Assembly: GCA_964614915.1 (NCBI GenBank)
Contig: CAZTNC010000019.1
Coordinates: 2,091-66,090, forward strand
Length of the DNA: 64,000 nucleotides
Direction of reading: 5' to 3'
Origin: an uncultured Thiotrichales bacterium
GTDB lineage: Bacteria > Pseudomonadota > Gammaproteobacteria > UBA4575
Position numbers and translations under genes: made by a program. Under the pieces are notes generated by a model that was not told the origin of the DNA, did not search any database, and saw only the letters and a list, made by a program, of their open reading frames with translations. Below are positions 287 to 10,581 of this stretch, one piece after another. The first letter of the stretch is position 1. Every line of letters starts with the position of its first letter.

Positions 287-970
287 CTACGCATTCAATA
301 GATCAATAATTTCCGAACATGACAAACGTCTACCACCTGTAAAGGTTCTCTTCATGGGCTCATAAATTTGCCACATCCTTCTGTAGTCCCCTATGGAGGG
401 ATCGTGAGAATTAAGGTCATGCTTTTTAAACTCTTGGAACCGATCCAGATGATTGATCAAAAACCAGGCGACACTGTGATGTTCGGGTTCTTCGTTTCCG
501 TCGAATCCAGGAAATTTCACAGGCTGTCCACTTGGCCCAGCCTTTATCCCGACTTCTTTTTTATCTTTATCTGAAAGTTTGGAGTAACTAAATTCAATCC
601 TGGACCACATCTCCAACACATCACAAACTTCTCTGACTACATGTTCCTGGTCCACATGGCTGTGAAACAAGCCAGAGTACTCCCATTCGAATCCCCAATA
701 GTGCCCTCCCCCAAGTGCCTCGCTGACGAAATCTGGGTCTATCTCCCCCTCAACTTTGTGGTGTTTGTAGAGATCTCGAAGCATCATCAGGACCAGCTTT
801 TCGCCGTCAGTGATACGAACGTCATCACGACCAAAGGCAGTCAATCCGGCATCTACAAGCCTTCGTACAGCTTCTGCGCGCGAAGGTTGATTCGGCTGTT
901 CAAATCGCCATGCATCTATCCGTTGCAAGGTATGCACATCCAGTCGCATCTCAAATCGCTCTGCTTTCAT
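287..970 (-). CDS. Ribbon-helix-helix (CopG/Arc-like) domain fused to a YfbU-family domain
   Basis: N-terminus 'RFEMRL...LQRIDAWR...SRAEAVRRLVDAGL' is RHH-like. C-terminal 'VCDVLEMWSRIE...FPGFDGNEE...DLNSH' motifs are typical of YfbU proteins. Confidence 0.8.
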   Translation of the reverse strand: MKAERFEMRLDVHTLQRIDAWRFEQPNQPSRAEAVRRLVDAGLTAFGRDDVRITDGEKLVLMMLRDLYKHHKVEGEIDPDFVSEALGGGHYWGFEWEYSGLFHSHVDQEHVVREVCDVLEMWSRIEFSYSKLSDKDKKEVGIKAGPSGQPVKFPGFDGNEEPEHHSVAWFLINHLDRFQEFKKHDLNSHDPSIGDYRRMWQIYEPMKRTFTGGRRLSCSEIIDLLNA

Positions 971-1193: not shown

Positions 1194-1804
1194 CTACTCC
1201 CTTTTTGATGCGTTCTCCAAAAGTGACTTCATTCTGAAGAGAGCAAACCCTTTTTGTGCTAGAGAGGCTTTTGAACGGGGATAAGCATCCGCATAGGTCA
1301 CTGCAGCATGAACAAGCCCTTCCGTCGGCATCGGGTGTGCAGCCAGGATAGCCGGGACACTGTCGCCATTGGCCATCATCTCGCAATATCATGGACAGCC
1401 ACCCGGGTGCCTCTAAGACAAGGCGTGCCATTGAGAACATCCCCGTCAACTGTAACCATCCTCTTCGCTTTCTCCAGTGCTGTCAGTCTGCGCCGTACAT
1501 TGCTTTTCATCGGGCGGACATCGATTGAAACAGCATCTTCACGGACTGCCCTGGTTTCGGGATCATCGAACAGACGGCGGATAAAGCCCATCCTTCCCTT
1601 GAGGGTCAACATATCCGTCGTTTCATGTGCGAACTTCAGACTCACAAGTGCCTTGCCCAGAATGACCCGGCTGCCCTTTTCGCGCCTTACGGCATCCCCC
1701 AGCAGGCCCGCATCGATGATGCGATGCACTTGTTTCAAGGACACACCCGTTACCTTGGCTGCCTCATTTACAGACAGAACACGCTCGTCGAATTTCATGT
1801 TCAT
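1194..1804 (-). pseudogene. HTH + DUF433 antitoxin-like gene, split by a 1-nt frameshift near 1379-1384
   Basis: ORF 1376-1843 ends in the DUF433 motif 'DGDVLNGTPCLRGTRVAVHDIA'. The continuation 'MMANGDSVPAILAAHP...AVTYADAYP' is in the next frame (ORF 1194-1379): CAT GAT ATT GCG AGA TGA versus expected GCG GAG ATG ATG. Confidence 0.75.
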
Positions 1805-2134
1805 AATCTTTCCTTCAACGTGGAAAGATCTATGAGCGATCAAGGCAAAATATCAACTTTGAAAAGTTGCTGTAGCAGCCGCAAAATCGGGCCGTACTTG
1901 CCATGTAATAGCCAAATATTGCCCAGCACACGTTTTCGGCCCCCTTATGAAAGGGTAACTGACTACGTGGCCGGGACAAAAAGGCTATTGGGAAGCGCAA
2001 CATGCTACATTTATGAAATTGAATGGATTGGCTTGACGTCCGCTGGACCAGAGCTTTCAAGTGCTGGCCTTCGCGTTGGTATTTTTAGCGTTACACGATT
2101 TTCAACTGGCATTGGAACCCTCAAGGAACCCGAA

Positions 2135-2222
2135 ATGAAGAAGCCCGGCGTACCGGGCTTCTCAATTTTGTGACTCAGGTCTTGTTAACAGATTGACTTC
2201 AAATCTCAACAACCCTAGGCAC
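2135..2222 (-). ncRNA. Predicted tracrRNA (anti-repeat, nexus, terminal hairpin); ends approximate
   Basis: Minus strand reads TGAGATTTGAAGTCAATCTG (2208-2189), a perfect 20-nt complement of the repeat at 5583-5602. This is followed by TTAAC, a nexus-like AAGAC-CTGA-GTC and a 10-bp hairpin (2139-2162). An extended -10 TG-T-TATGGT lies at 2237-2229. Confidence 0.75.
2139..2162 (-). terminator. 10-bp stem hairpin (AGAAGCCCGG-TACG-CCGGGCTTCT) ending the predicted tracrRNA
   Basis: Perfect inverted repeat 2139-2148 / 2153-2162, followed on the minus strand by a weak TCATTTC tail. Confidence 0.6.
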
Positions 2223-2270
2223 GGATAAACCATAACACAAGAAGTGGTTCAGGCACCAAATGATCAAGCC

Positions 2271-5200
2271 ATGAACTGGCGACTGGGAGTCAGCCTCGGG
2301 ACCCACGCACTGGGGTGGTGGGCATTCCAGGTAAAGAAGACCGGTAAGCGCTGGCAGCCCCGGGCCTCCCTGAGGGGCGGGGTCTATATTTTCCCAAGCG
2401 GGCGCGAGCCTGCACGTCGGGGGCGCGTGGGGGACAGTCATGCGGTGAGGCGACGGCTGACCCGCAACGCACGTCGCAACCGCGACCGCAGGAAGACCCG
2501 GTTGCAAGCCTTCATGCGTGAACTGGTGGATCTGGGGCTGATGCCGGAGTCCATCGAGCAGCGAAGAGGGCTGTTTCAAACGTTGCCGGGATCGGCAGAT
2601 CCCCATCAGTTCAATCCCTATTTTCTGCGCGCCGAAGCCGTACACAGGACGCTGGCGCCCTACGAGCTGGGCCGAGCCCTGTTTCACCTTGGGCTTCGAC
2701 GCGGCTACAAATCGAACCAGATCGGGGAACAGGAGGAGAATGGCGGGGATTTCAAGGAACGGATCGTCAACCTCAAGCACGCGCTGGACGGGCAAACCCT
2801 TGGGCAATTCCAATGGAAGCGGATTAGGCAGGACCTGAAGCGGCAGCAGGTCGGTGAACCCCCTGTAGGGATTCGTTTTCGGGACCCAGGTAGTTTTTTC
2901 CCGGACCGCTCAATGTACGAGGCCGAGTTCGAAGCCATTCGGCAAAGACAGGCCCCCGAGCACGACCTGACGCAGGAAGACTGGGAGCGGCTGAGGGACC
3001 GCTACGTGCTGTTTCAGTGGCCGCTCAGGCCGATGTCTCGGGGGCCCTGCCGGTATTTTTCAAACGAGATAAGGCACTGGAAGGACACGCCGATCGCCCA
3101 TGACTTTCGCATCTACCGGGAACTGAACTTGCTCAAGTGGTTCGACCATGAATACCAAGGGCACGATCTGGATGCCGAGCAATACACTACGGTTCGCAAT
3201 CTGTTGCTGAGCCGCAAGTCGGAAGTCAAATTTGATGCCCTGCGCAAGCTGAAAAAGGCCGACCAATCCCTGCTGTTTCCTGACTGCTCCCACTTCAATC
3301 TGGAATCGGAGGACCGTAGCCGCAGGGGCATCGAGCCGCACGGCATGGTCAACATCCTTGGAAACCATCCCGTGCTGACCCCATTTTGGGCGCAGCGGTC
3401 CACGGACACCGGGGGGGGGGCTTGCTGGATGACATCTTCGCTGCATTGCTGGAGGAAACGGAACAGGAGGCGCTCAACGCCCGCCTGCTGGGAGAGTCCA
3501 ACCTGGAAGAGGAAGCCATCGAGACATTCAGGTCATTGAAGCTTTCCCGGGACACTGTCGGCGAATCACGCAAATTCCTGGAGAAGATCGTTCCCATCCT
3601 GCGCGATCAGCACCTGACGGTTTGGGAAGCCATCCGGGAAGTCAGGGATGACCGGGGCAAGCCCCTGCATCCTGGGCACGGGCCGAACCGCCATGATTAC
3701 GAGGAGCTTCCCTACTATGGGGAGATCCTGCGCGACTCGATGGCCGGCATGAATCCCGAAGCCGATCCTGCAATCGAACCCGAACTTCATTTTGGCAGGA
3801 TCGGTAACCCGACCGTGCATGTGGCACTGAACAACCTACGCCGGGTCGTGAATGCCCTTATCTCAAGATTTGGCACCTTGCCGGTCGAGATCTACATCGA
3901 GCTGTCCCGCGACCTGAAAAACAGCCGAAAGAAACGCAACATCGCATCCACGATCCAAGCCCGCAACAAGAAAGCCGACGACAAATATTGCGAGGAACTC
4001 AGGGAGTACGGGATACACAACCCTTCCGGGCGCGACCTCAAAAAATATAGGCTGTGGAAGGAGTTGGGCGAGGGAGATGCGGCCCGATGCTGTCCGTTTA
4101 CGGGCGAACACATCTCTGTTGCGCAGCTGCTCAGCGGCGAGGCCGAAATCGAGCATATCCTGCCCTTCAAGCGCACCCTCGATGATTCAATGGCGAACCT
4201 TACCGTAGCCATGTGCCGGGCAAATCGGATCAAGGGCAACCGGACACCCTTCGAGGCGTTTGCCGAAGGTGTCCATTCGAAAGACGGCATCCACTGGGAA
4301 ACCATCACCGAACGGGTGGCAAACCTGCCCCACCACAAGAAGTGGCGATTTGGCAAGAATGCCATGCAGATCTTCGAGCGCGAGTATGACTTCATTGCGC
4401 GCCAGTTGACGGACGATGCCTATATTGCACGAAGTGCAGCCCGCTACCTCGGATGCCTGAAAGGCGTTGAGCAAGTCGTTTCGAGCCGGGGCAGTCTGAC
4501 AGCACTTGTGCGTGGCAAATGGCACCTGAACGAGATTCTTTGCGAAGACAGCCGGAAAAGCCGCGACGATCACCGCCGCCATGCGATCGATGCGGCGGTC
4601 ACAGCCCTGGTGGACCAATCCCTTCTGAAAAGCGTTTCAAAACGAACCGCACGCGGGACCGACGGCAGGATTCACATCATGGTGCCCAAGCTGGATGACC
4701 GTATGAAAACTTCGATTCACCAGCAGGTGCACGAGATGGTCGTGGCGTTCAAGCCGGACCATGGACTGCAGGGCCAGATGTTCAATGAAACGGCGTACGG
4801 GCACATTGAACCTGACCGACGCGATCCGGACTTTCCGCAGCACACCCTTGTGACCCGCAAGTCGATCACAGCCCTGACGCCGAAAGAATGTGAATACATC
4901 CGGGACCCCGGCATCAGGAAAGCTGTATCTTCATGCTTGGGCAATGCCAGAAAAGCAGGTGAGGCGCATAAGAAGGCACTGCTTCGCTTTTCCCAAGAAC
5001 AAGGTATCCGCAGGGTTCGCATCCTCATCAAGGACCAGGTCGCCATACAAATCGAATCAGCACCCTACAAGCGGTATACGACCAGTGCGTATGCGTGTTG
5101 CGATATCTGGCGAGTACCCAAGGGCAAGGCCGGCCAGTATGTGCCGGGTGAATTTACTTGGCAGGGTGTTTTCTGGTCGTATGTGGATGTTTCTGGCGAA

Positions 5201-5470
5201 CATTCCAGCCCAGGGGAACGAAAGCCCCATCCCGGGGCCAGGTTCATCTGCCGGCTATACAAGAACGACATGATCGCCTGCAGGAAGAACGGGGAGATGC
5301 ACATCCTGCGGGTGGTCGGCTTCAGCACAACCAACAACAAGCTGAGCATCGCTCGCCATTATGCTGCGGACCCTGAACAGCGGTATGTCAGCATCAATCA
5401 ACTTGGGATCAATCAGCTTCAAAAGCTGCATGTTACCCCTGATGGGACAGTAAAAGGCCTTACAAAGTGA
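2271..5470 (+). pseudogene. cas9: Type II-C Cas9 (about 1065-1066 aa if in frame), frameshifted at G10 (3411-3420), RuvC-I Asp replaced by Ser
   Basis: N-terminal 'MNWRLGVSLGTHALGWW...GVYIFPSGREP', Arg-rich bridge helix, 'GRIGNPTVHVALNNLRRVVNALI', RuvC-II 'IYIELSRDLK', HNH 'EIEHILPF...NLTV...ANRIKGNRTPFEAF' and RuvC-III 'RDDHRRHAIDA'. ORFs 2244-3539 and 3386-5470 join at the G tract. Confidence 0.92.
3411..3420 (+). repeat. G10 homopolymer at the cas9 frameshift (G8 or G11 restores the frame)
   Basis: ...GACACC GGGGGGGGGG CTTGCTGGATGAC...; the downstream frame needs GGC TTG CTG GAT GAC. Confidence 0.9.
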
Positions 5471-5484
5471 CTCGAGGTCTTGTT
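5467..5484 (-). ncRNA. Second copy of the tracrRNA nexus-like motif (AACAAGAC-CTCGA-GTCAC) overlapping the cas9 stop codon
   Basis: Plus-strand GTGACTCGAGGTCTTGTT versus GTGACTC-AGGTCTTGTT at 2170-2186; the single indel lies in the predicted loop. Confidence 0.4.
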
Positions 5485-5546
5485 GGAATCGCCTGTGAGG
5501 GTCGGCGTCCCTGCGTGGATCGGGGATTTAACGAGGTGCTGGATAG

Positions 5547-5574
5547 CAATAAACTCTTGGCCGTGCCAAAAGAG
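5547..5574 (-). terminator. Hairpin plus T-rich tail directly after the lone repeat (CTCTTTTGGC-ACG-GCCAAGAG-TTTATT)
   Basis: Read on the minus strand; bulged 8-bp stem followed by TTTATT. Confidence 0.5.
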
Positions 5575-5606
5575 CAGGCCACTGAGATTTGAAGTCAATC
5601 TGCAAC
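5571..5606 (-). CRISPR. Single 36-nt type II-C-like repeat GTTGCAGATTGACTTCAAATCTCAGTGGCCTGCTCT; putative spacer at 5607 to about 5636; no array
   Basis: The 20-nt core is complementary to the tracr anti-repeat, and the GTT 5' end pairs with AAC of the tracr. Length and ends resemble type II-C repeats. I saw no second copy. Confidence 0.7.
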
Positions 5607-5634
5607 TTGCAGTATGTCATTACTCGTGGGCTTG

Positions 5635-5640
5635 AGTATA
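5635..5640 (-). promoter_or_regulatory. Candidate -10 box TATACT for the spacer-repeat RNA (start near 5628, about 22-nt guide)
   Basis: Plus-strand AGTATA at 5635-5640, where type II-C repeat-embedded -10 boxes normally sit relative to the next repeat. Confidence 0.45.
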
Positions 5641-5759
5641 CACTCGCAATCTTCATAAAGCCCTAAAATCATGTCCAGACGTGTACTCCAGATAATCAGT
5701 AAATGGCCTGTACTGATGAGAAAAGCGCAGAAATTTAGCTTATTTGGGGTGCAGGACGA

Positions 5760-5955
5760 AATCGATATCTCACGGGCCCCTGCGTTCTGGAGACGAATAT
5801 CAGCAGAACATCCAGATAACATTCACAGCGATTACGAATCTACGCACCCCTCGACTGCCGGGAGATTTGTGCGAATGGAAAACGTGACCAAGGAGATTCG
5901 TACAAAGGAAGAGGCAGGAAACCCACTGCCTCCAAACATGAAATCCGACAAGTAA
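5760..5955 (+). pseudogene. C-terminal remnant of an M48-family metallopeptidase
   Basis: 'DISRAPAFWRRISAEHP...STHPSTAGRFVRMENVTKEI' resembles the M48 C-terminus (FWRRM...STHP...ER). The HEXXH part is absent. Confidence 0.55.
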
Positions 5956-6170
5956 GAGAATTTATACCGCGCCCTCCACAGAGTGGACCGGGATCATTCC
6001 CTTTGTTAGCATTCCCGGCAGTAATGGCCCGAATCTGGACCTTGCCGCTTGGTTAGTGTGATTCCCAATGCGGACCATGATTCGGTCATTGCCTTCTCGG
6101 GGCAGCGTTACGTATCACAGTTGGATATGGCGCACATCGGTTGCCCTCACCTGACACGGAGACATCGGAA

Positions 6171-6260
6171 ATGAAGAGTTTTTTCGAAGCAAACGCAACC
6201 TTGGTTCTTGTGGTAGCTGCGGTCACTTTTGCAATCCTGACTGCTGTACTGGTTCAGTAG
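6171..6260 (+). CDS. 29-aa hydrophobic small protein MKSFFEANATLVLVVAAVTFAILTAVLVQ
   Basis: Translated by hand; GGAG about 9 nt upstream; one predicted transmembrane helix. Confidence 0.35.
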   Translation: MKSFFEANATLVLVVAAVTFAILTAVLVQ

Positions 6261-6558
6261 TACCGCGCCCTGCCATCAAGCCAGTACTTTTACTTGATCT
6301 CCCGTAAGCGCACCGCGATCTCTCGACTTTTGTCCAGCAGACACCATAGGGTGCTCAGCACCATAGCCTTCTGATGGTCATGCTCCAGATGGCAGGGCCA
6401 CCGCAATAGAGGTTGAAGATTTTACTTATAGCGGAACCTCTCCAAAGAACTCATACATCCTGCCATAACTGCTTACTCTAATTCTTACTTTCAATTCTAG
6501 GCTAAGAGGGTTACCCCTTAATTCTGTTGCATAGATTACCCAAAAACTTTGTTTTCCT

Positions 6559-6578
6559 CGGTACACTACCGGTACACT
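6559..6578 (+). repeat. Tandem CGGTACACT x2 with 11-bp periodicity; probable integrase arm-type binding sites
   Basis: Copies at 6559-6567 and 6570-6578, about 120 bp from the tRNA-derived att core. Confidence 0.5.
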
Positions 6579-6696
6579 CCCCAGTTTCGGCTACTCGCAC
6601 TAAACTAACCTAACATGCTGAATTAGCAAGATTCATACTAGCTCTACCGAGCATTACTTGTTTCAATATAATCAATGGCTTATCGATCATTTTGGC

Positions 6697-6742
6697 ACTG
6701 TTAATCACTAGGTCGGCGGTTCGAGCCCGTCCCGGGGAGCCA
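6697..6742 (+). mobile_element. att site: 3' half of tRNA-Asn(GTT) from anticodon loop to CCA; right boundary of an integrated island
   Basis: A-CTGTTAA-TCACT-AGGTC-GGCGG-TTCGAGC-CCGTC-CCGGGGA-G-CCA has a GTT anticodon, T-arm, G73 and CCA. Upstream sequence cannot form the 5' anticodon stem, D-arm or acceptor strand. Confidence 0.8.
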
Positions 6743-6846
6743 ATAAAAACAAAGACTCATGTAAATTCTGAAAAACCATAAAACATCGCATAACTACTAT
6801 TTAACCAAAGAGTCAGGTTGGCTCCCAAATTAGACAGACTATAACG

Positions 6847-8136
6847 ATGAGTACACAATTGATCACAGAGATACGTACGCACCGGGACAACTGTAAAGAG
6901 TCTTTGCGTAGTTTCAAAATAGCTGAACACCCAGGAAAATTCGGGCAAGAGCAAGAGTACACAGCTCAGAAGATTCTCGAAAATATAAATTTAATATTAG
7001 TTGGCGTTACATCGCTCACAAAAAAACCAATTAAATTTATTCAGAATTCAACGTGGAGTGAGCGAAGAGATTTAGCCGGATGGCTAAACGAGTTGAATGC
7101 CCATATCGTTAGTAAAGATTTACCTGCAATCATTAATACTCTTGAGAGCATTAAGCCATTTTTACGGAGCATAGGCATTTATTTTACGAATGAACGAGTC
7201 GAAGCCCATGAAGAATATATTAGAAGATTACTGGTAAATGCTTCCGGCCTTTCCCAACACATCATTAAAGCAGAAGCAATTGAATCAAAGACAAAAGAAA
7301 TAGAGCAGGAAATCAGCGAATCACATCAACAGCTTACAGAGATATATGGAGAACAATTACTACGCATAGAGACATTAGGAGAGACTATAAACTCAACTGA
7401 AAGAGAACGTGAGAAATTAGCTGGTATTGTCGAGCAAGACTCTGCTAGATCCCAAGAAGTAGAGAGAATTTTAACTGAAGCCAAAAGTCATAAAGGAGTT
7501 ATAGATGGCTTTGTCCAGAGAATTTCACAAAGAGAGTCTCAGTTGGAAGATCAAGAGGAAATGACAAGGGAGTACATTGAAAAACTAGAAGCCTTTAAGG
7601 CTGGTCATGAACGCTACAATTCAGAGGCTGATGAGCTAATAAAGCAATCAAAAAGTGCCTTGGAATTATCAACTTCAGTAGGACTCAGCAAAGCATTTTC
7701 TGCACAATACGATAAAGCTAATAAAAGATTTCCTAAATTCTTTTGGATTACTACAGCTGGAATTTTGGGTGGGCTAGCAGTGTATCTAGGTTGGCTGGCA
7801 TTGGACGAAACCAACAGCGTGGCAGCAGTTATGGGCAGGATATCACTACTACCAATATTGATTGCTGGGGCATGGTTCTGTGCTGGGCAATATGTGAAGC
7901 AAAAAAATATTGCAGAAGACTACGCATATAAAGCAGTTCTTGCCAAGTCAATCGTGGGTTTTTCTGACCAACTTTCGACAGAAAGTCAAAAAGGTGATGA
8001 TCACTCAATCTTTATGAGGTTGGCTCTCTACGAAATGATTAAAAATCCTCTTCGGAAACATCCACGGGAAGCTTCTAGTATGTCTGAACTCCTTAACAAA
8101 CTTTCAGGCCTATTTAAAATTAATACTCCCGAATGA
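6847..8136 (+). CDS. Hypothetical membrane protein: long coiled coil and two C-terminal TM helices
   Basis: 429-aa AT-rich ORF with an E/K/Q-rich central region and two hydrophobic segments before 'QYVKQKNIAEDYAYKA'. Confidence 0.75.
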   Translation: MSTQLITEIRTHRDNCKESLRSFKIAEHPGKFGQEQEYTAQKILENINLILVGVTSLTKKPIKFIQNSTWSERRDLAGWLNELNAHIVSKDLPAIINTLESIKPFLRSIGIYFTNERVEAHEEYIRRLLVNASGLSQHIIKAEAIESKTKEIEQEISESHQQLTEIYGEQLLRIETLGETINSTEREREKLAGIVEQDSARSQEVERILTEAKSHKGVIDGFVQRISQRESQLEDQEEMTREYIEKLEAFKAGHERYNSEADELIKQSKSALELSTSVGLSKAFSAQYDKANKRFPKFFWITTAGILGGLAVYLGWLALDETNSVAAVMGRISLLPILIAGAWFCAGQYVKQKNIAEDYAYKAVLAKSIVGFSDQLSTESQKGDDHSIFMRLALYEMIKNPLRKHPREASSMSELLNKLSGLFKINTPE

Positions 8137-8297
8137 ATCGTAGGAATTGCACAGTCATCACGATACCAATCTAGAAGGCTAGTGTTTGATAATGATTGAT
8201 GGCAAGCAAACAGCATAGCTAGTCCAACATTTTCTCTAGCTCTGTCAGGATATTCTCAACATCACGATTCTCACCTGTCTTGCAGGAGTCTTTTATA

Positions 8298-9290
8298 ATG
8301 TACTATCTTCATTTTGAGAATGTGACAACTATCGTGAGAACAGCCCTGTTCTACCCGTTCCGATATTTCATCGCAATATTTGGTTTGTGTGTTCTTGTCC
8401 TGACAGGAGCAGTACATGCAGAAGATGACCAAAGAAGGCACAGCGGCGTATATGTAGGTCTTGAGTTGGGATTTGTGAATGCCGAGGGGCTGTCGTCTGA
8501 CTTGTCGGGAATCAACCACCCTACGCAGTGTGACCAACTGCTCAAGGATGACGATCCGGCAACGGATGACAGGGTGGTAGACCTGTCGAATCCGGCATGT
8601 AATGTTGGTGACATACCCCAAACCTTGTCCGCCAATTCTTTTGATCTGGGCAATGAGCTACTGGGTGGTATCAGCGTGGGCTACGTGCGGGACAGGGTTC
8701 GCATCGAGCTTGAATACTCACACCGGGTTTACGATGGCAGCGATTCCTCGCCCTGGAGAATCCCCGGCTCAAACACCCCTCTTGCAAGCAAAAACAACGA
8801 AGTCAGCGAACTTGATCCACCGTCCGAACGGATATCGAATTTCGACGCCCACCAGCTTTTCGTGAACGCCTACTACGATTTTCCGAACTCCTCACGCTGG
8901 ACTCCCTATCTGGGTGCGGGTTTCGGCTGGGCTCGGACCCGGTTTGACTACATTGCCCGCTTTTTGCGCAAAACACACGCACAGGGATACCCGCCAGACA
9001 AACCACCGGCGGCTGCCGGTACGCTCGGCTACTGGGATACGAGGATCTCCGAGACGCTTTTCGGCTTCCAACTCCTGGGCGGTCTGGACTACGCGCTGAG
9101 TGAAAACCTCTCAATGGGCATCAAGGCACGCTGGGCCGAGTTCGAGGATTTCAGCCACAGCGGCACTTGGGATCTCATCCGCAGTCATGAGCCCGTGCAG
9201 GCCGATGGCGTGACCCCATGGAGGAGCACACTTGAGTTTGACGATGTCGAATACTGGGCCGTGAGCTACGTGGTCAAGTATCGATTCTAG
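8298..9290 (+). CDS. Outer-membrane beta-barrel protein (opacity/porin-like)
   Basis: Signal-peptide-like N-terminus, 'GVYVGLELG', 'FVNAYYDF', 'WTPYLGAGFG', 'GFQLLGGLDY' and C-terminal Phe. Start uncertain. Confidence 0.8.
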   Translation: MYYLHFENVTTIVRTALFYPFRYFIAIFGLCVLVLTGAVHAEDDQRRHSGVYVGLELGFVNAEGLSSDLSGINHPTQCDQLLKDDDPATDDRVVDLSNPACNVGDIPQTLSANSFDLGNELLGGISVGYVRDRVRIELEYSHRVYDGSDSSPWRIPGSNTPLASKNNEVSELDPPSERISNFDAHQLFVNAYYDFPNSSRWTPYLGAGFGWARTRFDYIARFLRKTHAQGYPPDKPPAAAGTLGYWDTRISETLFGFQLLGGLDYALSENLSMGIKARWAEFEDFSHSGTWDLIRSHEPVQADGVTPWRSTLEFDDVEYWAVSYVVKYRF

Positions 9291-9507
9291 TCAAGAAACC
9301 TCAGCTCACGGTGGTGTATCCGTTTGAAAAATTGTTTAGGATTTAGCTAAAAGACTTAGGTCAATTGCCAATTGAATAAGGCATTGCTGTATTGGCTCTT
9401 TTCCCATTTCCCTACTCCACCAGGCCTGTTTGCAGGATAGAGGATAGACCATAGCCTATGGTTTAATAACATGCTCCTGCGCATATAGCAGATTATAGGA
9501 GCTAGTT

Positions 9508-9933
9508 ATGAGCGATTCAAAAGGATGGGTATCTGCCAGAGCAAATTGTACAGTTGAAGTTGCTGCGCGTGCTATTCATGCGGCTATAAAATCAGATATT
9601 GAAGAATTCAACGATCTACCAACTGAAAAAAGAGGATGTCGCACTTTTAAAATTGATGATAGAGATTACACAAACGTAGGTATTGGGTTTAATGTAGACA
9701 ATAGGCATATAGCAGGTGCGCCAAGAACCTATTGGGCACTTACTTTTAAGGTTAATAAAAATAATATAAACGTATTTATTAACGATGCTAAGGAACAAAA
9801 AGAAAGTCTTTTATTTCCTATTGAAATTCAGTGGTGCGAAGAAACATCCCTATGCCAATACCTAGCGGACGAACAACCTGTAACACCAGAAGAAATTTCA
9901 CGAAAAGCATTATATCCGGTATTTTTTAAATAA
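9508..9933 (+). CDS. Hypothetical protein
   Basis: 141-aa AT-rich ORF with GGAG RBS. Confidence 0.6.
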   Translation: MSDSKGWVSARANCTVEVAARAIHAAIKSDIEEFNDLPTEKRGCRTFKIDDRDYTNVGIGFNVDNRHIAGAPRTYWALTFKVNKNNINVFINDAKEQKESLLFPIEIQWCEETSLCQYLADEQPVTPEEISRKALYPVFFK

Positions 9934-9935
9934 AA

Positions 9936-10157
9936 CTATTCATCACTGTTTAATGCTACTAGACAGGCACTAATCATAATTAGTGCCTGTCTAGTATAAT
10001 CAAGCTGTTCTTTAATTTGATTTATCTCGGATTCACAAACTCCAGGCTTACTATAATCTTTTGTAACATCAATACCTGTGTACATTTTTAGCTTTTTAAT
10101 ATCTGCCAATAAAGCATTTATGTTCTCGTCTATGCTTTCTTTTTTAGTTTTTGACAT
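9936..10157 (-). CDS. Hypothetical small helical protein
   Basis: 73-aa AT-rich ORF with GGAG RBS. Confidence 0.45.
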   Translation of the reverse strand: MSKTKKESIDENINALLADIKKLKMYTGIDVTKDYSKPGVCESEINQIKEQLDYTRQALIMISACLVALNSDE

Positions 10158-10194
10158 AAGATTCTCCTAATCGTTAAATATCAATGCGACAATA

Positions 10195-10581
10195 ATGTAT
10201 TCGAAACCTCTAAGTGAATTAACACCTTTTACGTGGCGTATACTTGTTCAAAGAGTGTCTGATGAGCATGTTAATTTCTATAGAAATAACAACATAACTA
10301 TCACGTATGGTGATCTAGCTTACATCCTAGGGATTCATGCCTTAAGCGTAAGCTATAACTTGAATCAAATTCATAGATTCTGTAATCGTAATAATTTACC
10401 TAGGTTAAATATAATTGTCGTACGTAAAGACACTAATAAACCTGGTAAAGGCATGCCTTCTGATGTAGTTGATTTTAACAAGGAGATAAGTCAAGTTAGA
10501 GAGCATGATTGGTACCAATACAAAATACCTACTAGTAACGATTTCTTATCAAATACCAGTCGTGTAGAAATTAAAAAATAA
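10195..10581 (+). CDS. Hypothetical protein with winged-HTH-like 'ITYGDLA...LP.L..IVV.K.T..PG.G' signature
   Basis: Motif recognised in the 128-aa translation; function unknown. Confidence 0.6.
   Translation: MYSKPLSELTPFTWRILVQRVSDEHVNFYRNNNITITYGDLAYILGIHALSVSYNLNQIHRFCNRNNLPRLNIIVVRKDTNKPGKGMPSDVVDFNKEISQVREHDWYQYKIPTSNDFLSNTSRVEIKK

What the first reader, a model, noticed from the sequence alone, without database searches (positions are those of the whole stretch)
2271..5470. Orphan type II-C Cas9 with the RuvC-I catalytic Asp replaced by Ser but HNH intact: natural nickase or DNA-binding regulator
Seen: the N-terminus is 'RLGVSLGTHALGWW' where Cas9s have 'LGLDLGTNSLGW'. The Ser codon AGC (2292-2294) needs at least two substitutions from GAC/GAT, so a single-base error is unlikely. 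RuvC-III also reads 'HRRHAID' instead of 'HRHHAID'. The RuvC-II Glu and the HNH residues (EIEH...N...N) are retained. There is no cas1, cas2 or array on either side. Established: loss of this Asp (D10 in SpCas9) makes a nickase. Inference: a Cas9 repurposed by an integrative element for a non-adaptive role (nicking, repression or element competition). Simple decay is the alternative, given the frameshift.
Basis: partly seen in the sequence, partly recalled or inferred. Interest (0 to 1): 0.8.

Follow-up and report, generated by a model that had tools for sequence, protein, structure and literature searches.

The report
Decaying Cas9 locus, RuvC Asp lost
This is a real type II-C Cas9 gene whose first RuvC catalytic aspartate is a serine, but it sits in a stripped-down, decaying CRISPR locus and is itself frameshifted, so this copy is most likely a recently dead remnant rather than a working natural nickase.

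Summary
Window 2271-5470 encodes a 1066-aa type II-C Cas9. Ser (AGC, 2292-2294) replaces the RuvC-I Asp that 112 of 114 aligned homologues keep. The RuvC-II Glu, RuvC-III His and Asp, and the HNH residues are intact. A one-base deficit in a G10 run (3411-3420) splits the ORF.

The locus is not completely bare. It has a conserved tracrRNA on the minus strand (about 2131-2222), a 28-codon cas1 stump (5467-5550) and one solitary 36-nt repeat (5571-5606) with a terminator. It has no spacers and no cas2.

Relatives form a decay series:
- Cas9s at 61% identity or less sit in complete cas9-cas1-cas2-array loci.
- Those at 70-75% keep the Asp, but most have lost cas1/cas2.
- A sister lineage (about 93% identical, several sponge metagenomes) shares the Ser and the solitary repeat, has an intact 1067-aa ORF, and has lost a second RuvC residue (RuvC-III Asp to Asn).

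Since the two lineages split, dN/dS is about 0.3-0.6. No stop codon has arisen, where about 7 are expected under neutrality. The Ser protein was therefore retained by selection for some time.

Verdict: a degraded immune locus with a RuvC-dead Cas9 and a newly broken copy here. The nickase/regulator reading stays open for the sister lineage but is unproven.

The parts
2271..5470 (+). cas9 (type II-C), 1066 codons once the frame is corrected. As it stands it is two ORFs: 2271-3539 (422 aa) and a C-terminal frame running from 3419 to the stop at 5470.
   Evidence: ORF list and translation. Pfam HNH_4 and RuvC_III. NCBIfam TIGR01865 Cas9 equivalog above its cut-off for both halves. Best solved relatives are GeoCas9 and NmeCas9, E 6e-45. 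380 homologues were found.
2292..2294 (+). Ser codon AGC at the position of the RuvC-I catalytic Asp (SpCas9 D10, GeoCas9 D8). It lies within the altered motif GVSLGTHALGWW; the family consensus is GIDLGTNSLGWW.
   Evidence: The codon is identical in sister loci L001 and L032. All other relatives examined have GAC or GAT.
3411..3420 (+). G10 run carrying the frameshift. The sister lineage reads GGGGATGGGGG here (11 nt, Gly-Asp-Gly-Gly, in frame).
   Evidence: An independent Logan contig of run X1 reproduces G10. It is the longest homopolymer in the 64 kb.
3899..3901 (+). RuvC-II catalytic Glu (E544), retained.
   Evidence: E in 120 of 121 aligned sequences.
4091..4252 (+). HNH nuclease domain. 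The catalytic His is at 4154-4156 (EIEH), and the two Asn (NLTV, KGNRTP) are retained.
   Evidence: Pfam HNH_4, E 4e-17, residues 608-661. Alignment to GeoCas9. Census of catalytic residues.
4571..4597 (+). RuvC-III motif HRRHAIDAA. The catalytic His (4580-4582) and Asp (4589-4591) are retained. The non-catalytic His before them is Arg.
   Evidence: In the sister lineage the Asp is Asn (HAINAA).
2131..2222 (-). tracrRNA gene, divergent from cas9. On + coordinates it comprises the anti-repeat (2185-2208), a small GAC-NNNN-GUC hairpin (2170-2184) and a terminator hairpin (2139-2162) followed by a U-rich tail. The 5' end was not determined.
   Evidence: A 20-nt perfect inverted repeat with the solitary repeat (I2). 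The element is conserved upstream of cas9 in 17 loci, and its anti-repeat co-varies with each locus's repeat. The consensus fold has 10 of 17 pairs with compensatory changes. The terminator-like hairpin was detected. There are 0 differences from the sister lineage across 2131-2218, against 4-8% in the flanks.
5467..5550 (+). cas1 stump: about 28 degenerate codons starting at a GTG that overlaps the cas9 stop. It reads VTRGLVGIACEGRRPCVDRGFNEVLD; intact Cas1 reads MIGGLVEIADEGRHLCVYRGFLKVLD.
   Evidence: comparison with the cas9/cas1 junctions of 16 loci. One search shows no other cas1 or cas2 in the window.
5571..5606 (-). Solitary 36-nt CRISPR repeat (GTTGCAGATTGACTTCAAATCTCAGTGGCCTGCTCT), with no spacer. 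The flank on its crRNA-5' side (5607-5618, GACATACTGCAA) matches the cas-distal flank of relatives' arrays.
   Evidence: Relatives carry 2-14 copies of this repeat with 30-nt spacers. The sister lineage has the same single repeat.
5554..5574 (-). Terminator-like hairpin plus T-run just downstream of the solitary repeat on the minus strand. It lies at the presumed deletion junction.
6711..6742 (+). 3' fragment of a tRNA gene (T-arm, acceptor strand and CCA). It marks the exact right end of the 5.5-kb block (1218-6742) shared with the sister lineage, so it is a likely att-site remnant of a genomic island.
   Evidence: ARAGORN finds no complete tRNA in the window.

Best explanation
This is the remnant of an ordinary type II-C CRISPR-Cas9 immune locus (tracrRNA, cas9, cas1, cas2, array) in a sponge-associated gammaproteobacterium. 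It is being dismantled step by step.

- Shown: a deletion removed cas1 beyond codon 28 or so, all of cas2, and every spacer. What remains is a cas1 stump and one repeat.
- Shown: the RuvC-I Asp codon took two substitutions to become Ser before the window's lineage split from a sister lineage.
- Shown: the sister lineage then lost a second RuvC residue (RuvC-III Asp to Asn). The window's lineage lost one base in a G-run, which split cas9.
- Inferred from established Cas9 biochemistry: without the RuvC-I carboxylate the RuvC site cannot hold its metal ions. The full-length Ser protein could therefore at most nick the target strand with HNH, or simply bind DNA.
- Shown: after the Asp was lost the ORF stayed under purifying selection, apparently somewhat relaxed. 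The RuvC-dead protein therefore still did something useful for a while.
- Inferred: in this window, with a frameshift and no spacer-derived guide, the gene is now a recently inactivated pseudogene and the locus has no immune function.
For: - Identity as a II-C Cas9.
- Decay series among relatives:
  - cas1 and cas2 lie directly downstream of cas9 in 18 loci whose Cas9 is 61% identical or less, and these carry arrays of 36-nt repeats.
  - L030 (70%) keeps cas1, a short cas2 and 14 repeats.
  - L003, L006, L005, L029 and L007 (70-75%) have no cas1/cas2, only 0-28-codon cas1 stumps and 2-7 repeats.
  - The window and its sister have one repeat plus a stump.
- Scattered catalytic loss: deviations at catalytic positions occur only in the window, its sister P0001/P0124, P0006 (E-to-A, H-to-Y, H-to-Q) and P0009 (D-to-N). 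These same four proteins deviate most at columns that are at least 95% conserved (5-8%, against a median of 1.1%).
- Frameshift: an independent assembly reproduces it and NCBI annotates two CDS. The corrected ORF has no other lesion, which fits recent inactivation.
- Selection after Asp-to-Ser:
  - Polarised counts are 31 synonymous and 30 replacement changes on the window branch, and 29 and 39 on the sister branch.
  - dN/dS is 0.30 and 0.41, or 0.46 and 0.63 when corrected for the strong transition bias. Pooled over both branches it is below 1 at every kappa tested (p 2e-9 to 5e-4). The sister branch alone is borderline (p 0.04-0.08) at kappa 8 or more.
  - No nonsense change occurred where 6.5-10.6 are expected under neutrality (p about 1e-3).
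- RNA parts: the tracrRNA is unchanged between the two lineages. Compared with relatives, the repeat and anti-repeat share a compensatory G-to-A / C-to-U change.
Against: - dN/dS clearly below 1, an intact 1067-aa sister ORF seen in several samples, and a perfectly kept tracrRNA are not what a long-dead locus looks like. The 'remnant' label may undersell a still-functional RuvC-dead Cas9 in the sister lineage.
- The frameshift rests on low-coverage short-read data (about 6x) in a homopolymer. If it is an error or a phase-variable state, the window's copy is intact as well.
- The raised dN/dS is not significantly higher than in the closest Asp-keeping pair, L003/L006 (44 replacement and 60 synonymous changes, against 74 and 67). 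Relaxation specific to the Ser lineage is therefore not demonstrated.
Confidence: 0.55

Rival explanations
1. The locus is a working natural HNH-only nickase or DNA-binding regulator. In this reading the Ser-lineage Cas9 is an exapted, RuvC-dead effector that pairs with its tracrRNA and an RNA transcribed through the solitary repeat. The guide would be the fixed flank sequence 5607-5630 on the minus strand, or a partial-match target as with scaRNA or long tracrRNA. The complex would nick or repress a fixed target. The G10 run would be an assembly error or a phase-variable OFF state.
For: - The Ser is shared by two lineages with about 10% synonymous divergence, and the sister has an intact ORF in several sponge metagenomes.
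- dN/dS is below 1 and no stop codon has arisen since the split.
- Both catalytic changes in the lineage fall in RuvC (S8, then Asp to Asn in RuvC-III), and HNH is untouched.
- The tracrRNA is invariant, and there is a compensatory change in the repeat:anti-repeat duplex.
- The solitary repeat has its own minus-strand terminator.
- A TATACT -10-like hexamer lies about 30 nt upstream of the repeat. This was read directly from the sequence and was not found by the promoter scan.
- G10 is the only long homopolymer in 64 kb. G runs of this length are classic slippage sites (own knowledge).
Against: - The consensus scan finds no promoter.
- No match to the flank-derived guide was found in the window, in any fetched locus or in viral contigs beyond chance.
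- The low divergence around the repeat (2 differences in 185 nt) extends over the adjacent 660 nt of coding sequence, synonymous sites included. It therefore looks like recent recombination rather than constraint on the RNA.
- With so few changes, having two RuvC hits and no HNH hit has no statistical weight.
- Replacements on both branches fall on otherwise invariant positions about as often as chance predicts (17 of 30 and 16 of 39, against 54% of columns).
- No RNA data exist.
- The frameshift is reproduced by a second assembler.
Confidence: 0.27
2. The gene has decayed neutrally ever since the Asp was lost. In this reading the Asp-to-Ser change, or the loss of cas1/cas2 and spacers, ended all function. 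The apparent purifying selection is an artefact of recombination between lineages, of ancestral polymorphism, or of short time depth.
For: - Divergence along the gene is uneven: 1-25 differences per 200 nt, and three-fold lower across 4800-5655. This shows recombination between the lineages.
- Four substitutions sit inside the otherwise invariant 12-residue RuvC-I motif.
- The Ser lineage ranks highest for deviations at conserved columns.
- Replacements do not avoid conserved positions.
- The window's copy is frameshifted.
Against: - Pooled over both lineages the replacement-to-synonymous ratio is below the neutral expectation under every transition bias tried. On the sister branch alone it is only borderline at kappa 8 or more.
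- No nonsense mutation arose where about 7 are expected.
- The only indel in the sister is an in-frame AGG.
- The tracrRNA has no change in 88 nt while its flanks are 4-8% diverged.
Confidence: 0.13
3. The Ser is part of a still-active RuvC site. A rearranged active site (for example S8 together with the neighbouring N12H change) would keep double-strand cutting, so the protein would be an ordinary nuclease.
For: The only support is that the rest of the RuvC tetrad is intact in the window, and that a His appears four residues after the Ser.
Against: - This Asp is invariant in 112 of 114 aligned relatives and throughout solved Cas9s.
- Replacing it is the standard way to make a nickase (established knowledge).
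- The sister lineage has additionally lost the RuvC-III Asp, which would not be tolerated in an active site.
- P0006 also has the His at that position yet keeps the Asp, so the His is not a compensating change.
Confidence: 0.03

Closest known systems
Type II-C CRISPR-Cas9 systems (GeoCas9, NmeCas9, CjeCas9)
   Same: - The domain order is RuvC-I / bridge helix / REC / RuvC-II / HNH / RuvC-III / PI, in about 1066 aa.
- The best solved-structure matches are GeoCas9 and NmeCas9, and the protein hits the TIGR01865 equivalog.
- It has a 36-nt repeat starting GTTG, read antisense to cas9.
- It has a tracrRNA with an anti-repeat, a small hairpin and a terminator.
- Its more distant relatives have the cas9-cas1-cas2-array layout without csn2 or cas4.
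   Different: - The RuvC-I Asp is Ser.
- cas1 is reduced to a 28-codon stump and cas2 is absent.
- The array is reduced to one repeat with no spacers.
- The ORF is frameshifted.
Engineered Cas9 D10A nickase (SpCas9 D10A; equivalents in Nme and Geo)
   Same: The same catalytic carboxylate is missing while HNH is intact. By analogy, the expected activity is a nick in the guide-complementary strand (established knowledge, not tested here).
   Different: - The change here is natural, to Ser by two substitutions, and is fixed in a lineage.
- It is accompanied by three more changes in the same motif and, in the sister lineage, by loss of the RuvC-III Asp.
- No activity has been measured.
Nuclease-independent regulatory uses of Cas9: Francisella novicida Cas9 with scaRNA/tracrRNA, and autorepression of the cas9 promoter by long-form tracrRNA in S. 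pyogenes (own knowledge)
   Same: This is a possible mode of action for a Cas9 that has a tracrRNA but no spacers: binding at partially matched targets without cutting.
   Different: Those Cas9s keep all catalytic residues and sit in complete loci. Here no scaRNA, no long tracrRNA form and no target was found.
Naturally nuclease-impaired RNA-guided effectors without adaptation genes: Cas12k in type V-K CAST, Tn7-like type I-F3/I-B systems, and IsrB (a natural nickase lacking HNH) (own knowledge)
   Same: An effector that has lost a nuclease activity, has no cas1/cas2 and carries a very short array or fixed guide.
   Different: - No transposase (TnsB/C/TniQ) or TnpA/TnpB-type gene accompanies cas9.
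- The loss here is in RuvC, whereas IsrB lacks HNH.
- The cas1 stump shows a recent deletion from a standard locus rather than an old dedicated architecture.
Incomplete or degenerate type II loci noted in surveys of Cas9 and tracrRNA families (Chylinski et al. 2013, PMC3737331)
   Same: That survey records some type II loci as 'incomplete', departing from the minimal cas9-cas1-cas2 operon, and it excluded truncated Cas9 sequences. This locus is of that general kind.
   Different: Here the decay can be followed stage by stage across close relatives. It also includes a fixed catalytic-site loss that then stayed under purifying selection.

Membership tests
Type II-C Cas9 effector | Full-length match to Cas9 profile models, with RuvC and HNH domains in the Cas9 order | tested here: met
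   TIGR01865 scores 133 and 305 bits for the two halves and 444 bits for the sister, against a cut-off of 100. Pfam HNH_4 and RuvC_III hit. GeoCas9 and NmeCas9 are the best solved relatives.
Type II-C Cas9 effector | Complete RuvC catalytic tetrad (Asp-Glu-His-Asp) | tested here: not met
   The tetrad reads Ser-Glu-His-Asp. The first position is Ser, where 112 of 114 aligned relatives have Asp.
Type II-C Cas9 effector | HNH catalytic residues (Asp/Glu-His ... Asn ... Asn) | tested here: met
   EIEH, NLTV and KGNRTP align to the GeoCas9 catalytic motif and match the family consensus.
Type II-C Cas9 effector | Uninterrupted open reading frame | tested here: not met
   There is a one-base deficit in the G10 run at 3411-3420. 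It is reproduced in an independent assembly. The sister lineage is intact.
Type II-C CRISPR-Cas locus | tracrRNA whose anti-repeat pairs with the CRISPR repeat | tested here: met
   There are 20 perfect base pairs plus a GUUG/UAAC extension with the solitary repeat. The element is conserved, and its structure co-varies across 13-17 loci. Transcription was not tested.
Type II-C CRISPR-Cas locus | Repeat-spacer array | tested here: not met
   There is one repeat only and no spacer. No other contig in the source or sister metagenomes matches the repeat.
Type II-C CRISPR-Cas locus | cas1 and cas2 adaptation genes next to cas9 | tested here: not met
   tblastn with Cas1 and Cas2 from relatives finds nothing in the 64 kb. 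Only a 28-codon cas1 stump remains.
Type II-C CRISPR-Cas locus | RNA-guided cleavage of both DNA strands next to a PAM | not testable with these tools
   This needs biochemistry. It is expected to fail for the RuvC strand.
   The sister lineage (P0124, 1067 aa, loci L032 and L033; also L001, L002, L034 and runs X3-X5) has the same AGC codon, an intact ORF, a single repeat and no cas1/cas2. This is only one lineage. All other orphan relatives keep the Asp.
   dN/dS is 0.3-0.6. Pooled over both branches it is below 1 (p 2e-9 to 5e-4), and the sister branch alone is borderline at high kappa. No nonsense change occurred where about 7 are expected. dN/dS is higher than in most comparisons within the family, though not significantly higher than in the L003/L006 pair.
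   The solitary repeat has a terminator, but no promoter was predicted. No target was found in the window, related loci or viral contigs. Whole genomes could not be searched.
   The gene is frameshifted. It could be rescued only if the G10 run is an error or slips.
Effector co-opted by a mobile or integrative element (CAST-like) | Physical linkage to transposase or integrase genes and element ends | tested here: inconclusive
   No such gene lies within 1-17 kb. The neighbours are YfbU, HTH/DUF433, an unknown 429-aa protein, an OMP and then housekeeping genes. However, the 5.5-kb block shared with the sister lineage ends at a tRNA 3' fragment, and the window starts inside the block's left context.

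The most novel reading that the evidence does not exclude
The Ser-lineage protein, intact in the sister genomes, could be a naturally evolved HNH-only Cas9. It would have been kept by selection after losing RuvC activity, the adaptation genes and all spacers. It would work with its tracrRNA and a single-repeat RNA of fixed sequence as a target-strand nickase or a CRISPRi-like repressor. The G10 run in this window would then act as an on/off slippage switch.

More broadly, this sponge-symbiont subclade may be turning Cas9 into nuclease-poor, fixed-guide DNA binders. P0006 has lost three catalytic residues in an intact ORF. A guide-length trailer spacer is conserved across 70%-identical loci.
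Probability: 0.2. Interest if true: 0.75.

Novelty: new member of a known kind. Interest (0 to 1): 0.42.

Why it matters
If this is only decay, the locus and its relatives give an unusually clear step-by-step picture of how a type II-C CRISPR-Cas9 system is dismantled in symbiont genomes. The adaptation genes go first, then the spacers, then the catalytic residues and finally the reading frame.

The one point that goes beyond this is that the protein stayed under purifying selection after its RuvC Asp was lost. If that reflects a real activity, it would be the first natural counterpart of the engineered D10A nickase. It would also add a case of a Cas9 kept for something other than double-strand cutting. 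That can be tested directly with the intact sister protein.

Tried and rejected
- Guide from the flank of the solitary repeat. I searched GAGTAATGACATACTGCAA and shorter seeds in the window and all fetched loci, and found only the sequence itself. A 16-mer scan of viral contigs gave 12 hits, none extending beyond the 16 nt, which is consistent with chance.
- Conserved trailer spacer of relatives (...CTTTGATAAGTGTAATGA). There was no second copy in any related locus down to 10-nt seeds. The 4 viral and 45 metagenome hits to the 18-mer were unrelated AT-rich sequences.
- Arrays with this repeat on viral contigs: none.
- Low divergence around the solitary repeat as evidence of selection on that RNA. 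I rejected this because the low-divergence tract covers 4800-5655, including synonymous sites of cas9, which points to recombination.
- Rfam found no known RNA family in 1-12 kb, only sub-threshold noise.
- RNA-seq runs holding the region: none listed.
- The flanking 20-nt inverted repeat as transposon ends. I rejected this because it is the repeat:anti-repeat pair, which co-varies in every related locus.
- Literature searches for a described natural Cas9 lacking the RuvC-I Asp returned only reviews and engineered nickases.
- Raw reads for counting G10 against G11 were not available. The runs are held only as contigs.


Full report
**1. What is at 2271-5470**

The region holds two overlapping ORFs on the + strand: 2244/2271-3539, and 3386-5470 in another frame. 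Adding one G to the G10 run at 3411-3420 joins them into a 1066-aa protein with no other lesion.

- The protein matches Pfam HNH_4 and RuvC_III.
- It matches the NCBIfam Cas9 equivalog TIGR01865 above its cut-off.
- Among solved structures it is closest to the type II-C enzymes GeoCas9 and NmeCas9, E 6e-45.

In the alignment to GeoCas9 the window's 'RLGVSLGTHALGW' lies on 'KIGLDIGITSIGW', so Ser8 takes the place of the catalytic Asp. The codon is AGC at 2292-2294. Every relative examined has GAC or GAT, so two substitutions were needed.

The RuvC-II Glu (3899-3901), the HNH His (4154-4156) and the two HNH Asn are present. In RuvC-III (DHRRHAIDAA) the His that became Arg is the non-catalytic one. 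The catalytic His (4580-4582) and Asp (4589-4591) are retained.

**2. Is the frameshift real?**

A sponge-metagenome run (X1) holds 93% of the region's sampled words. Its independently built contigs match the window with no difference across the G10 run, at about 6x depth. NCBI's annotation of the source contig (317 kb) carries the gene as two CDS of 422 and 644 aa.

The sister lineage reads GGGGATGGGGG at this place, which is in frame and encodes Gly-Asp-Gly-Gly. The window has therefore lost one base and changed another. The resulting run is the longest homopolymer in the 64 kb. Raw reads were not available, so a homopolymer error or a mixed population cannot be excluded.

**3. The locus is not bare**

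- **Repeat and anti-repeat.** A perfect 20-nt inverted repeat flanks cas9, at 2189-2208 and 5583-5602. Comparison with relatives shows what it is. Downstream of related cas9 genes lie arrays of a 36-nt repeat, GTTGCGGATTGACTTCAAATCTCA..., read on the strand opposite to cas9, with 30-nt spacers. The window has exactly one copy (5571-5606, minus strand) and no spacer.
- **tracrRNA.** Upstream of cas9, also on the minus strand, is a tracrRNA gene. It consists of an anti-repeat, a GAC-NNNN-GUC hairpin and a G+C-rich terminator hairpin. It is conserved in 17 loci, and the anti-repeat changes in step with each locus's repeat. In the consensus fold, 10 of 17 pairs show compensatory changes.
- **cas1 stump.** Directly after the cas9 stop, a GTG that overlaps the stop opens about 28 degenerate codons of cas1: VTRGLVGIACEGRRPCVDRGFNEVLD, against MIGGLVEIADEGRHLCVYRGFLKVLD in intact genes.
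- **No other cas genes.** tblastn finds no other cas1 or cas2 sequence in the window.
- **Array collapse.** The flank of the solitary repeat (GACATACTGCAA) is the cas-distal flank of the arrays in L003, L006 and L029. The array therefore collapsed, and cas1-cas2 were deleted, from an ordinary cas9-cas1-cas2-array locus.

**4. Relatives form a decay series**

Of the 120 best homologues, all with an aligned N-terminus keep the Asp except P0001, which is 92% identical.

| Cas9 identity to the window's Cas9 | Loci | State of the locus |
|---|---|---|
| 61% or less (as measured to the query P0004) | 18 loci | cas1 and cas2 immediately downstream, plus arrays |
| 70% | L030 | cas1, a short cas2 and 14 repeats |
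| 70-75% | L003, L006, L005, L029, L007 | no cas1/cas2, only stumps and 2-7 repeats |
| about 93% | sister lineage | one repeat plus a cas1 stump, no spacers, like the window |

Catalytic-residue losses are confined to this neighbourhood:

- the window (Asp to Ser);
- its sister (Asp to Ser, plus RuvC-III Asp to Asn);
- P0006 (RuvC-II Glu to Ala, HNH His to Tyr, RuvC-III His to Gln, in an intact 1066-aa ORF);
- P0009 (RuvC-III Asp to Asn).

The same four proteins deviate most from columns that are at least 95% conserved in the family: 5-8%, against a median of 1.1%. The losses hit both nuclease domains in different lineages. That looks like erosion of an immune effector whose adaptation machinery has gone, not a single directed change.

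**5. The sister lineage and selection after the Asp loss**

The cluster of P0001 contains a full-length 1067-aa protein, P0124. It lies on a 912-kb scaffold and on the contig seen in runs X3-X5. It has the same AGC codon, an intact frame, HAINAA in RuvC-III, an intact HNH, an identical tracrRNA and the same solitary repeat. No other contig in these metagenomes matches the repeat.

I polarised the differences between the window and the sister with six outgroups.

| Measure | Window branch | Sister branch |
|---|---|---|
| Synonymous changes | 31 | 29 |
| Replacement changes | 30 | 39 |
| dN/dS, no transition bias | 0.30 | 0.41 |
| dN/dS, kappa 8 | 0.46 | 0.63 |

- Pooled over both branches the ratio is below 1 at every kappa tested (p 2e-9 to 5e-4). 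The sister branch alone is borderline at kappa 8 or more.
- Neither lineage has acquired a stop codon, although 6.5-10.6 nonsense changes are expected in total under neutrality (p about 1e-3).
- The tracrRNA has no difference in 88 nt, while its flanks differ by 4-8%.
- Compared with other relatives, the repeat and anti-repeat of this lineage carry a matched G-to-A / C-to-U change that preserves their pairing.

The Asp-to-Ser change therefore did not end selection on the gene. Constraint does look loosened, for three reasons:

- dN/dS is higher than in most comparisons within the family, which give 0.13-0.23.
- Replacements fall on otherwise invariant positions about as often as chance predicts: 17 of 30 and 16 of 39, where 54% of columns are invariant.
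- The excess over the closest Asp-keeping pair, L003/L006, is not significant.

**6. What cannot be claimed**

The stretch holding the solitary repeat is very similar between the two lineages (2 differences in 185 nt). The same low divergence covers the preceding 660 nt of cas9, synonymous sites included. It therefore indicates recent recombination rather than selection on that RNA, and it means the array collapse may be younger than the Asp loss.

The consensus scan finds no promoter. By eye, a TATACT hexamer lies about 30 nt upstream of the repeat on the minus strand. No target for a flank-derived guide was found in the window, the related loci or viral contigs. No RNA data exist.

**7. Setting**

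From 10.6 kb onward the window carries housekeeping genes: lapB-like, rpsA, cmk, aroA, tyrA and pheA. The first 10.5 kb has mixed, mostly lower G+C.

The window and the sister scaffold share only the block 1218-6742, at 94.6% identity. The block comprises an HTH/DUF433 gene, the tracrRNA, cas9, the repeat and 1.1 kb more. It ends exactly at a tRNA 3' fragment...GGTTCGAGCCCGTCCCGGGGAGCCA (6711-6742). The window contains no complete tRNA.

This looks like the att-side edge of a genomic island, so an island setting is plausible. No integrase or transposase is linked to cas9 within the window, however.

**8. Verdict**

The best reading is a degraded type II-C locus. The RuvC-dead Cas9 was still useful enough to be kept for a while, but in this window it has recently been broken and has no spacer-derived guide.

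The natural-nickase or regulator idea is not excluded for the intact sister protein, and it is directly testable. At present it rests only on evolutionary retention, not on any identified guide, target or transcript.

Noticed in passing
window 2170-2186 and 5467-5484: A 17-of-18-nt direct repeat, GTGACTC(G)AGGTCTTGTT. One copy lies inside the tracrRNA gene (antisense to its small hairpin). The other overlaps the cas9 stop and the start of the cas1 stump. The cas9/cas1 junction of the mRNA would therefore be complementary to the tracrRNA. Intact cas1 starts in relatives resemble it less closely. This could be chance, gene conversion or antisense regulation.
   Followed up: partly
L005/L013 10001-13201 (protein P0006; 1.87-Mb MAG chromosome OZ243969.1): A 70%-identical orphan Cas9 with an intact 1066-aa ORF has lost three catalytic residues: RuvC-II Glu to Ala, HNH His to Tyr and RuvC-III His to Gln. 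It keeps a tracrRNA, one full repeat, one degenerate repeat and a single spacer. It may be a natural 'dead' Cas9. A rough estimate of its branch dN/dS is 0.28.
   Followed up: partly
L003 13444-13472, L006 13437-13465, L005 13620-13650, L007 8588-8616, L030 10136-10166 (minus strand): The spacer next to the cas-distal, degenerate end of the array is shared by loci whose Cas9s are only about 70-75% identical. Its repeat-proximal 15-20 nt (...CTTTGATAAGTGTAATGA) are nearly invariant, while its distal 10 nt have diverged. That is the pattern expected for a guide under selection. No target was found. The spacer is absent from the window.
   Followed up: partly
window 6711-6742: A tRNA 3'-end fragment (T-arm, acceptor strand, CCA) lies exactly where similarity to the sister scaffold stops. 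The next 3.8 kb (6743-10500) is low in G+C and differs between the two genomes. This suggests tandem islands at a tRNA site.
   Followed up: partly
window 4800-5655 compared with L032/L033: Divergence from the sister lineage drops about three-fold here (13 differences in about 850 nt, against about 5% elsewhere), including at synonymous sites. This indicates recent recombination between the two lineages across the 3' end of cas9 and the repeat.
   Followed up: yes
L029 5391-9001: In the locus of P0002 the CRISPR array is split by a 3.6-kb insertion. The insertion carries an IS1595-family transposase, a HindIII-like restriction enzyme and an N6/N4 DNA methylase.
   Followed up: no
L006 and L008 (same MAG, CBDBDH01): One gammaproteobacterial MAG carries both an orphan locus of this subclade (no cas1/cas2, 3 repeats) and a complete cas9-cas1-cas2-array locus. 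The second locus has a Cas9 61% identical to P0004, and its repeat differs at 6 of 24 core positions. Cross-use of guides therefore looks unlikely.
   Followed up: partly
L010 10001-14062: A Binatia chromosome (Cas9 56% identical to P0004) has a 12-repeat array directly after cas9 but gives no cas1/cas2 hit. This is another adaptation-less locus, in a different phylum.
   Followed up: no
window 6847-8136 (+): A 429-aa ORF with a long coiled-coil-like N-terminal part and hydrophobic C-terminal segments. It has no Pfam match. It lies in the low-G+C segment next to an outer-membrane beta-barrel gene (8280-9290).
   Followed up: no
window 287-970 (-) and 1376-1843 (-): Upstream of the tracrRNA lie a YfbU-domain protein and an HTH_17 protein ending in a partial DUF433 domain. 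The HTH/DUF433 gene belongs to the block shared with the sister lineage.
   Followed up: no
window 9947-10003: Both strands give weak, sub-threshold matches to microRNA hairpin models. This means a strong local palindrome in the low-G+C segment, and its meaning is unknown.
   Followed up: no
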